A stretch of 64,000 nucleotides of DNA from assembly GCF_056746865.1 (NCBI RefSeq), contig NZ_CM163382.1; one strand, given 5' to 3'. Numbering within the stretch: the stretch's first letter is position 1; each line of letters opens with the position of its first letter. The notes under the pieces are model-generated. The model was not told the origin of the DNA. It did no database searches and worked only from the letters and a program-made list of their open reading frames with translations. Of the stretch, positions 57,324-58,451 are shown in pieces. Position numbers and translations under genes: made by a program.

Positions 57324-57346
57324 TCTCTACATGTGTTAAATATTGA

Positions 57347-57376
57347 AACGGGCGTATAACACGCCCGTTGTTTTAT
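57347..57376 (+). terminator. icd intrinsic terminator
   Basis: AACGGGCGT-ataac-ACGCCCGTT hairpin plus TTTTATTT, 24 nt after icd stop. Confidence 0.75.
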
Positions 57377-57425
57377 TTATGTGGATATTATTAATATCAT
57401 GTCGAGAATATTTATATGAAGACCA

Positions 57426-57749
57426 TTACTTGAGTCCATATGGGCATATTTTTATAATACAACTATTATGTAAACATTTATTTGTTATTTCGCTTTCTCC
57501 TGGAGGACACTCTTGACTGCTTTTGAGTAAACTCCATAAATCCTTGTTGAATGGTGTGATGTTATAAATAGTAATAGGGTATTCTTTATCCTTAAAGATA
57601 ATACCAGACTTAACCGGTGTAAATATACTTCCAGGAGTGAGAAATATAGTAGGTTGATACCAGATGATCATTTTCATATCACCCCATATGGCTGAAAAAG
57701 ATATACCGCATGTAGGTTGAATTACCGTGTCAATTACTATCCACTTCAT
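57426..57749 (-). CDS. iraM: Anti-adaptor protein IraM (RssB inhibitor)
   Basis: 107 aa [32 protein letters not shown]...ICPYGLK. Confidence 0.85.
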
Positions 57750-58451
57750 TTGTTATGTCTTATCCCACGGTATTTAATATGGTTCATTAGGATGTTTATT
57801 TCTTGACTTTGCATATGTGTATATTACTCCCCAAAAAACAAATTAATCAAAAATTAAAACCATTGTTTATATAAAACAAAATTTAAAGCAAGAAATCTCA
57901 ATAGATATTAAACAAAATGAGATTTAGTGAAAATATTAGATTATTCACTTCGTTTTAGATTTGTTTAGCTAAAATGTTATACATTCAAATGACTGAACAT
58001 CCTGTAATTAAAACATAGCCTTTATACTACTTTGTGCCAATTTGCTAAACATTATGGTTGGCCTTTTTATATAACGATAATGACGAATATAAGCATGACA
58101 TGAGAATAAGGTTTCAATTTTTTAGTTATATAGGAATGGTTTAACCCATTCCTGGCTAAAATACATATAACCGGATGATGACTAAACCAAAACACATGTG
58201 CGTTAAGTATTGAAACGGGCGTATGGCACGCCCGTTGGTTTTATAAATTTGCTAACCGTTATAAAATAACGTATAGAAAGTCAAGTAATCACATTTCAAA
58301 TATCAATTTGATAGTATTGGCCTGGTGATTATTTATGAGTGGCAATAAAAAGACAGTATTTATCATCCATAGGGATAGTCTCTGCACTTTTATTTCCATT
58401 ATGCTAATGTCTTACTGAATTATGAAGCATTTCTTAAGCTTCCAACTTTAG

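What the first reader, a model, noticed from the sequence alone, without database searches (positions are those of the whole stretch)
57331..58250. Imperfect duplicate of the icd 3' terminus/terminator beyond iraM
The sequence immediately after the icd stop (ACATGTGTTAAATATTGAAACGGGCGTATAACACGCCCGTTGTTTTAT, 57330..57376) recurs with a few substitutions at 58192..58244 (ACATGTGCGTTAAGTATTGAAACGGGCGTATGGCACGCCCGTTGGTTTTAT), so the two copies bracket iraM. The icd 3' end is a known integration site for the e14 element in K-12, so this may be an att-like scar from past integration and excision, and it places iraM within a formerly mobile segment.
Basis: partly seen in the sequence, partly recalled or inferred. 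Interest (0 to 1): 0.45.

Follow-up and report, generated by a model that had tools for sequence, protein, structure and literature searches.

The report
Duplicated icd terminator brackets iraM islet
The terminator of the icd gene is present twice, and the two copies are the exact borders of an 817-bp AT-rich piece of DNA carrying the stress regulator gene iraM, which some E. coli lineages lack; it is an ordinary remnant of foreign DNA at a known phage landing site, not the e14 attachment site itself.

Summary
Unit A (57329-57376, 48 nt) and unit B (58194-58244, 51 nt) share 45 identical positions, against none expected by chance. Both are copies of the icd intrinsic terminator.

They bound an 817-bp, 29% GC insert (57377-58193) holding iraM, its upstream region and ymgK. 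Five genomes without iraM were read (Nissle and ST131 are phylogroup B2). Each has icd, one unit, then the sequence that follows unit B here. The insert is in 3933 of 5426 complete E. coli genomes. Unit B accompanies it in at least 94% of those.

The link to e14 is only indirect. Homology between phage 21/e14 and the host begins about 165 nt inside icd (about 57160-57175), outside the repeat. No icd coding relic lies left of unit B, and the insert has no integrase or att-arm similarity. However, phage 21 and e14 carry their own copy of this terminator in attP. All IraM relatives at 54-67% identity whose context was examined sit in lambdoid prophages or plasmid/island-like DNA.

Best reading: a reduced foreign islet at the icd prophage hot spot, flanked by att-like direct repeats. 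Unit B is decaying. Whether B2 lost the insert or never had it is unresolved. This is modest novelty.

The parts
56073..57323 (+). icd (isocitrate dehydrogenase), intact, with no prophage inserted
   Evidence: ORF list; annotated as icd in matching genomes
57159..57176 (+). Position inside icd equivalent to the left limit of phage 21/e14 homology with the host (att crossover region). It lies about 150 nt upstream of the repeat (unit A starts at 57329) and is not part of it.
   Evidence: Alignment of window icd, phage 21 attP, the K-12 e14-borne icd end and icdC copies; K-12 attL/attR sequences; phage 21 attP
57329..57376 (+). Unit A: icd terminator unit (hairpin 57347-57369 plus T tract). It is the left direct repeat and also lies 57 nt downstream of the convergent iraM.
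   Evidence: The hairpin was intact in all 16 E. coli loci sampled.
57377..58193 (.). 817-bp insert, 29.4% GC, absent from phylogroup B2 genomes
   Evidence: Comparison with empty sites; GC content; present in 3933 of 5426 genomes
57426..57749 (-). iraM (anti-adaptor of RssB, PmrD-like fold family PF11183)
   Evidence: NCBIfam NF007393 at 168 bits against a cutoff of 121; phrog_4407; protein identical to UniProt IRAM_ECOLU
58008..58052 (-). ymgK (14-codon small ORF), inside the insert
   Evidence: Identical peptide to the annotated K-12 YmgK
58194..58244 (+). Unit B: second, diverged copy of the terminator unit (hairpin 58214-58236). It is the right direct repeat.
   Evidence: The stem is damaged in K-12-type, IAI39 and other lineages.
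58245..58288 (+). B flank: the sequence that directly follows the single terminator in empty-site genomes. It is collinear with the icd-downstream flank of Citrobacter amalonaticus and with the e14-type attP arm.
   Evidence: anchored alignment test z = 3.7-5.7 against 0.7-1.6 for the flank of unit A
58289..58399 (-). ymgL small ORF. Its transcript would run into hairpin B.
58452..58856 (-). ycgX (DUF1398), a phage-family gene present with or without the insert
   Evidence: phrog_413; homologue in a lambdoid prophage

Best explanation
The two sequences are two copies of the icd intrinsic terminator: 18 nt of leader, a 9-bp GC-rich stem, a 5-nt loop and a T tract. They are the direct repeats at the borders of an 817-bp foreign islet (iraM, its long upstream region and ymgK) inserted immediately behind the icd terminator.

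The most likely history is as follows. A mobile element carrying its own copy of the icd terminator region, as phage 21 and e14 do today, recombined into the icd 3' region. That produced an attL/attR-like duplication. The element was then whittled down to the one useful cargo gene. In K-12, e14 later added a third layer on top.

Unit A remains the working terminator for icd and, on the other strand, for iraM. Unit B is a relic that may still stop ymgL-ycgX transcripts but is decaying. The repeats also allow precise loss of the islet by recombination between them. That is the probable origin of the single-copy site in phylogroup B2.

Shown: the repeat, the insert, the exact empty site, the distribution, the terminator-like structure, the phage-borne terminator copies, and the phage/plasmid context of IraM relatives.
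Inferred: the integration mechanism, the reduction of the element, the direction of change in B2, and any function of unit B.
For: The repeat is real and non-random.

Exact single-copy sites without iraM or ymgK occur in Z247, Nissle, ST131 and DETEC-E1005 and in ATCC 11775 and Seattle 1946.

The insert is in 3933 of 5426 genomes, and the unit B junction is in 3687-3876 of them.

The flank right of unit B is collinear with what follows the icd terminator in C. amalonaticus and in e14-type attP. The flank right of unit A is not. So terminator plus B flank is the older contiguity.

Phage 21 attP and e14 each carry an icd 3' fragment plus their own terminator hairpin. The phage 21 homology with the host ends at ...GTTTTAT, the same point as the right end of the repeat unit. 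K-12 shows the layering directly: icd, e14 hairpin, e14, icdC plus unit A, iraM, unit B.

The insert is 29% GC against 49.5% for the window.

Five IraM homologues at 54-67% identity were examined for context. Four are lambdoid prophage morons lying between the Q antiterminator gene and the lysis genes, one of them beside stxAB. The fifth is in a plasmid/island-like context. IraM matches phrog_4407.

Both units fit an intrinsic-terminator pattern. Unit B accumulates stem mismatches in several lineages while unit A stays intact.
Against: The insert has no integrase, excisionase or arm-type repeats, and no detectable similarity to phage 21 or e14 att arms.

The repeat lacks the 165-nt icd coding fragment that every 21/e14-type integration duplicates, and no relic of it is detectable left of unit B. 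A second deletion ending 5 nt past the old stop codon must therefore be assumed, or else a different att site.

DNA homology to phage iraM copies is about 70% and confined to the ORF. In phages these genes sit in the Q-lysis region, far from att.

Unit A, not unit B, has the sequence seen in outgroups and empty sites. Which copy is the original cannot be told.

Polarity within E. coli is unresolved. Phylogroups F (IAI39), D (ST69 type) and A (K-12) carry the insert with 4-6% diverged alleles, and only B2 lacks it. This suggests loss in B2 but does not prove it.
Confidence: 0.55

Rival explanations
1. The pair is a local duplication of the terminator with no integrative element involved. iraM arrived by illegitimate or homology-facilitated recombination next to the icd terminator. 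The 48-nt unit was duplicated by slippage or template switching at the hairpin, or was copied by gene conversion. It was kept because each transcription unit (icd/iraM and ymgL-ycgX) then has its own bidirectional terminator.
For: No integrase, att arms or icd coding relic are present. Both units look like terminators, and each sits 50-60 nt downstream of a minus-strand ORF. The site right after the T tract is insertion-prone: IS200C sits there in a strain otherwise identical to the window.
Against: The unit B hairpin is being lost in several lineages, which argues against strong selection for a second terminator. The locus is a proven integrase hot spot where phage-borne terminator copies are delivered routinely. 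IraM relatives are phage cargo.
Confidence: 0.25
2. The copies are the attL and attR of an e14 or phage 21 integration event proper. They would be a scar made by the same integrase at the same core.
For: The locus is the same, and e14 and 21 attP contain a homologous terminator. The right end of the unit coincides with the end of phage 21 homology with the host.
Against: Homology between 21/e14 and the host begins about 165 nt inside icd. The repeat starts after the stop codon. No icd fragment precedes unit B (score below the shuffle mean). The insert shows no similarity to 21/e14 arms. iraM lies outside e14 attR in K-12 and is present here without e14 (window).
Confidence: 0.05
3. The hairpin itself is the recombination target. 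A hairpin- or single-strand-specific recombinase (IS200/IS605-like, integron-like or unknown) inserted the iraM cassette, duplicating the folded site.
For: The unit is an extended imperfect palindrome (I8). IS200C, a single-strand transposon, is inserted within 1-2 nt of the left junction in BEC1-S17-ESBL-09. The borders of the unit are sharp.
Against: No such recombinase gene lies nearby. The unit is not dispersed: there are two copies in 64 kb and a median of two places per genome. IS200-family elements do not duplicate about 48 nt. No second cassette of this kind was found (searches returned only this same locus).
Confidence: 0.07

Closest known systems
icd / icdC duplication made by e14 and phage 21 integration (Hill et al. 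1989; Wang et al. 1997, as cited in PMC12803456; described in PMC6379469)
   Same: Same locus. Direct repeats derived from the icd 3' region flank foreign DNA. The phage copy includes the same terminator hairpin. The right end of the homology coincides for phage 21.
   Different: The e14/21 duplications start about 165 nt inside icd and include coding sequence. The repeat here starts after the stop codon, is only 48-51 nt long, and encloses 817 bp with no integrase.
Genomic islets and degraded prophages flanked by direct repeats of a gene's 3' end (for example DLP12 with a 47-bp argU-derived attR, PMC6379469)
   Same: A short (~47-50 bp) direct repeat of the 3' end of the target flanks low-GC cargo, and other strains have an exact empty site.
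   Different: The target here is a protein-gene terminator rather than a tRNA. The element is reduced to one gene plus a small ORF. The integrase is unknown.
iraL on the potB prophage island of CFT073 (Hryckowian et al. 2014, PMC4045071) and other prophage iraM-like morons
   Same: Same protein family with a variable presence among E. coli, carried as accessory cargo.
   Different: Those copies sit between the Q and lysis genes of recognisable prophages and share only about 70% ORF identity and no flanks with iraM. That paper places iraM 'on e14', which the gene map and this e14-free window do not support.
Bidirectional intrinsic terminators between convergent genes
   Same: Each unit is a GC-rich hairpin with a T tract on the plus strand and a T-rich tail on the minus strand, placed between convergent or tandem units.
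   Different: Function was not measured. Unit B tolerates stem mismatches in many strains.

Membership tests
attL/attR pair of a phage 21/e14-type integration in icd | Direct repeats bound a segment that other genomes lack, and those genomes keep one repeat (an empty attB-like site) | tested here: met
   Z247, Nissle, ST131 and DETEC-E1005 have icd, one unit, then the B flank
attL/attR pair of a phage 21/e14-type integration in icd | The repeat contains the crossover region about 165 nt inside icd, so an icd 3' coding fragment (icdC) is duplicated | tested here: not met
   The repeat starts 6 nt after the stop codon. Local alignment of the region left of unit B against the icd 3' end scores below the shuffle mean. 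Core position taken.
attL/attR pair of a phage 21/e14-type integration in icd | Integrase/excisionase gene or arm-type Int-binding repeats next to one repeat | tested here: not met
   Only iraM and ymgK lie in the insert. No significant similarity to phage 21 P/P' or e14 P' arms.
attL/attR pair of a phage 21/e14-type integration in icd | The phage attP carries a host-like copy of the sequence that becomes duplicated | tested here: met
   Phage 21 attP and e14 carry their own terminator hairpin after the icd fragment. No phage with the B-type variant was found.
Intrinsic (rho-independent) terminator | GC-rich stem-loop followed by a T tract, downstream of a gene end | tested here: met
   Both units are called by the terminator scan: 5 sites found in the scanned region (two of them these units) against 0.9 expected. 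Fold energies are -22.6 and -16.8 kcal/mol. Positions are relative to the icd, iraM and ymgL stops.
Intrinsic (rho-independent) terminator | Transcripts actually end there | not testable with these tools
   No transcript-end data are available
Transposon or MITE with target-site duplication | Terminal inverted repeats, a transposase, a short fixed duplication, and dispersed copies | tested here: not met
   No terminal inverted repeats at 57377/58193. No transposase ORF. The duplication is 48 nt. The unit occurs only twice in 64 kb, with a median of two places per genome.
Integron gene cassette (attC-bounded) | An integron integrase with attI nearby, and attC sites at cassette ends | tested here: not met
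   No integrase-like ORF in 54-64 kb. The unit is the icd terminator, conserved in species without any cassette.
Phage moron / prophage-derived cargo gene | The gene family is carried in phage genomes as a separately transcribed accessory gene with low GC | tested here: met
   phrog_4407. Homologues lie between the Q and lysis genes of lambdoid prophages and Stx phages. iraM is 33% GC and the insert 29%.

The most novel reading that the evidence does not exclude
The icd terminator hairpin could itself be a recombination site. In that case the iraM cassette was inserted by a hairpin- or single-strand-directed mechanism that duplicates the whole ~48-nt terminator unit. The incoming gene would then be delivered ready-insulated between two terminators, and could later be excised precisely. 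IS200C sitting at the same junction in a sister strain would mark the same structural target.
Probability: 0.07. Interest if true: 0.6.

Novelty: new member of a known kind. Interest (0 to 1): 0.3.

Why it matters
iraM sets RpoS stability under magnesium starvation, and its presence differs among E. coli lineages. This analysis fixes the exact unit of that difference: 817 bp plus one 51-nt repeat. It shows that iraM is not part of e14, although a published discussion says so (PMC4045071). It also gives a simple structural reason, flanking direct repeats, why the gene can be lost cleanly, as in phylogroup B2. Finally, it illustrates how the icd 3' end accumulates layers of terminator copies from successive insertions. 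For annotation, unit B should be read as a relic terminator or att-like repeat, not as a new element.

Tried and rejected
- icd coding relic left of unit B: local alignment with 1000 shuffles found nothing.
- Similarity of the insert to phage 21 P and P' arms and the e14 P' arm: not significant. An eyeballed GATGATG...CCAAAAC resemblance was chance.
- Rfam scan of 55000-60500: only sub-threshold noise, including tpke11 at 21.9 bits over unit A.
- Plasmid search: the hits are chromosome fragments filed as plasmids, with no independent mobile copy.
- Two viral-contig scans, for the B-type unit and for the right end of the insert: only prophage predictions that run over this same chromosomal locus.
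- DNA comparison with prophage iraM homologues: homology is limited to the ORF.
- Outgroup via bluR: the C. freundii bluR is not next to icd, so it is uninformative.
- Genome-collection scan for the hairpin: E. albertii, E. whittamii and Escherichia sp. E1V33 all have prophages at icd, and the fetched DNA stops before the far side. They give no occupancy information.
- Four-taxon test on the icd 5' part: too weak to root the indel, with sums of 63, 66 and 67.
- First literature search and the iraM+icdC search returned nothing relevant. Wang 1997 and Mehta 2004 are not held. Supplementary tables of PMC4045071 are not held.
- The count of empty sites is not clean, because unit B plus its flank alone covers 81-82% of that query.

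Full report
**1. What is in the sequence**

The window is E. coli. icd runs from 56073 to 57323 (+). It is followed on the minus strand by iraM (57426-57749), ymgK (58008-58052), ymgL (58289-58399), ycgX (58452-58856), bluR and bluF. No prophage interrupts icd.

The first copy of the sequence is at 57329-57376 and the second at 58194-58244:
- The two share 45 identical positions. They differ by three substitutions and two small insertions.
- The repeat finder gives a gapless 43-nt pair at 88% identity.
- A 36-nt degenerate pattern of the unit hits only these two places in 64 kb, with none expected from shuffles.

**2. What the unit is**

Each copy has 18 nt of leader, a 9-bp stem (AACGGGCGT/ACGCCCGTT), a 5-nt loop (ATAAC in A, ATGGC in B) and a T tract. 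Both are called as intrinsic-terminator-like sites and fold stably.

- Unit A starts 6 nt after the icd stop. On the other strand its hairpin lies 57 nt past the iraM stop.
- The unit B hairpin lies 53 nt past the ymgL stop on the minus strand.

The same hairpin follows icd in E. albertii, E. whittamii, another Escherichia species and three Citrobacter species. It is therefore the native icd terminator.

**3. The two copies are the borders of an insertion/deletion unit**

Genomes lacking iraM were read: Z247, Nissle 1917, an O25b:H4-ST131 strain and DETEC-E1005. Each shows icd (or the displaced icd fragment), one terminator unit, then immediately the sequence that follows unit B in the window (ATAAATATGTTAACCGTTATAAAATAACG...), then ymgL and ycgX. 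Nothing else differs.

The variable piece is 57377-58193 (817 bp) plus one unit. It is 29.4% GC against 49.5% for the window.

- The insert is present in 3933 of 5426 complete E. coli genomes.
- The junction of insert end, unit B and right flank is found in 3876 of them, and in one piece covering at least 80% in 3687.
- Two of the exceptions looked at in this 2-kb region carry IS insertions, though neither IS lies in that junction; why the remaining genomes miss the junction was not checked.

**4. Which arrangement is older**

The 42 nt to the right of unit B are collinear with two other sequences: what follows the icd terminator in Citrobacter amalonaticus, and the sequence after the terminator copy carried by e14-type attP regions. 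The anchored alignment gives z = 3.7-5.7. The 42 nt to the right of unit A are not collinear with either, at z = 0.7-1.6. So terminator plus B flank is the older contiguity, and the iraM segment is the derived insertion.

Within E. coli the direction is less clear:
- The window's IraM is identical to UniProt IRAM_ECOLU, an entry I take from its code to be strain UMN026. The region is 100% identical to ST69 strains 118UI and MS14387; 118UI is listed as phylogroup D.
- IAI39, which I know as phylogroup F, carries the insert at 96.2% identity to the window.
- K-12 carries it at 93.6%.
- The identifiable empty-site strains, including ATCC 11775 and Seattle 1946, are ones I know as phylogroup B2.

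All occupied lineages share the B-type changes in unit B. The insertion therefore predates their divergence. From general knowledge of the E. coli tree, F is close to B2. Absence in B2 is then more simply explained as a precise deletion between the two units.

The B2 copy carries A-type markers up to the loop, followed by the B flank. That fits a crossover in the shared 3' stem and T tract. I could not prove this. A four-taxon test on the icd 5' part is too weak.

**5. Relation to e14 and phage 21**

In K-12 the order is as follows:
- icd with an e14-borne 3' end and e14's own terminator hairpin
- e14
- the displaced icd fragment plus unit A
- iraM and ymgK
- a degraded unit B
- ymgL and ycgX

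iraM is thus outside e14's right end, and here it is present without e14. The statement in PMC4045071 that iraM is 'found on the e14 prophage' is therefore imprecise.

Homology between phage 21/e14 and the host begins about 165 nt inside icd, at window position ~57160-57175. The repeat does not include that region. The DNA left of unit B shows no similarity to the icd 3' coding end. The insert has no similarity to phage 21 or e14 att arms and no integrase. So this is not an e14 att scar.

The connection is indirect but real. Phage 21 and e14 each carry a copy of this very terminator in attP, after their icd fragment. Phage 21's homology with the host ends at ...GTTTTAT, exactly where the repeat unit ends. 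Every integration of such a phage therefore adds a terminator copy next to icd and pushes the older one outward. K-12 shows three such layers.

**6. Nature of the cargo**

IraM matches its NCBIfam model and a phage protein family. Five homologues at 54-67% identity were examined for genomic context:
- Four lie in lambdoid prophages between the Q antiterminator gene and the lysis genes, one of them beside stxAB.
- One lies in a plasmid- or island-like context.

Their DNA similarity to iraM is about 70% and limited to the ORF. ycgX also belongs to a phage family (phrog_413) and occurs in the same prophages. Orthologues of iraM itself carry only E. coli and Shigella names in the sample read, in line with PMC4045071.

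**7. Best explanation and rivals**

I regard it as well established (about 0.9) that the pair of terminator copies is the boundary duplication of an 817-bp foreign islet.

The mechanism is inferred. Most likely (0.55) a mobile element bearing its own icd-terminator copy integrated at this prophage hot spot and was then reduced to iraM. Unit B decays: its stem has mismatches in K-12-type, IAI39 and other lineages, while unit A is intact in all 16 loci sampled. Weighing against this are the missing icd fragment, the absence of any integrase trace, and the mid-genome position of iraM-like genes in present-day phages.

Rivals:
- A local duplication of the terminator accompanying a non-integrative insertion (0.25).
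- A true e14/21 att scar (0.05, essentially refuted).
- A hairpin-targeted insertion mechanism (0.07). This one is suggested only by the palindromic unit and by IS200C sitting within 1-2 nt of the left junction in a sister strain.

**8. Novelty and score**

Direct repeats of a target gene's 3' end around low-GC cargo, with an exact empty site in other strains, is the classic signature of an islet or degraded prophage, and the locus is a textbook attachment site. I found no paper in the searchable library describing the iraM islet or its terminator repeats.

This is a new member of a known kind. It is useful for annotation and for understanding why iraM is variably present, but it would not surprise a specialist. 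Interest 0.3.

Noticed in passing
window 57165-57282: The first ~110 nt of the last 165 nt of icd are identical to the icd fragment carried in phage 21 attP (L059 2495-2612). K-12 and Nissle icdC differ from it at 5-9 sites, yet no prophage sits in icd here. This looks like a mosaic 3' end left by past phage-mediated replacement. It is the real trace of past integration in this window.
   Followed up: partly
L098 (BEC1-S17-ESBL-09) 660-1395; equivalent to window 57377: A strain 100% identical to the window over this 2-kb region, apart from this insertion, has IS200C inserted right after the T tract of unit A (...GTTTTATT^). That is within 1-2 nt of the left junction of the iraM insert.
   Followed up: partly
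L001 (strain E597) about 1849-1871; equivalent to window 57347-57369: The loop of the unit A hairpin is inverted (GTGTTATAC instead of GTATAACAC) while the stem is unchanged. This is a hairpin loop flip.
   Followed up: no
window 56261-56288 and 57610-57637: A 28-nt stretch of icd and a stretch inside iraM on the opposite strand match at 24 of 28 positions (score 36 against a maximum of 29 in 500 shuffles). The stretch is conserved at the same position in prophage IraM homologues, so it is probably a coincidence of the family's coding sequence. It remains unexplained.
   Followed up: partly
window 58245-58856; L056 2050-2529: The ymgL-ycgX block is 30-37% GC. YcgX (DUF1398) matches phrog_413 and has homologues between Rz1 and the small terminase gene in the same lambdoid prophages that carry iraM-like genes. 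The block present in all E. coli may be an older prophage relic. The B flank resembles the e14-type attP arm.
   Followed up: partly
L053-L055 3206-5105; L056 8001-9773: IraM-family genes lie directly beside stxA/stxB in Stx prophages, and beside an LpxR-family lipid A deacylase gene in another lambdoid prophage.
   Followed up: no
L004 (K-12) 17945-17995: In K-12 unit B, both partners of one stem pair are mutated (G>A and C>G), giving a mismatch rather than a compensated pair. Other lineages carry different stem mutations (CACCC; CCCATT in IAI39).
   Followed up: partly
L093 (DETEC-E1005) 1053-1290: The displaced icd fragment at the right end of the resident prophage has the phage 21-type sequence rather than a host-type one. 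This implies successive or recombined phage integrations at this site.
   Followed up: no
window 57750-57960 and 58245-58451: Strain-to-strain identity drops to 87-93% in the iraM upstream region and the ymgL region, while the neighbouring genes are 98-99% identical. Strain E597 switches from ~100% to 91% identity with the window exactly at unit B, which suggests a recombination breakpoint there.
   Followed up: no
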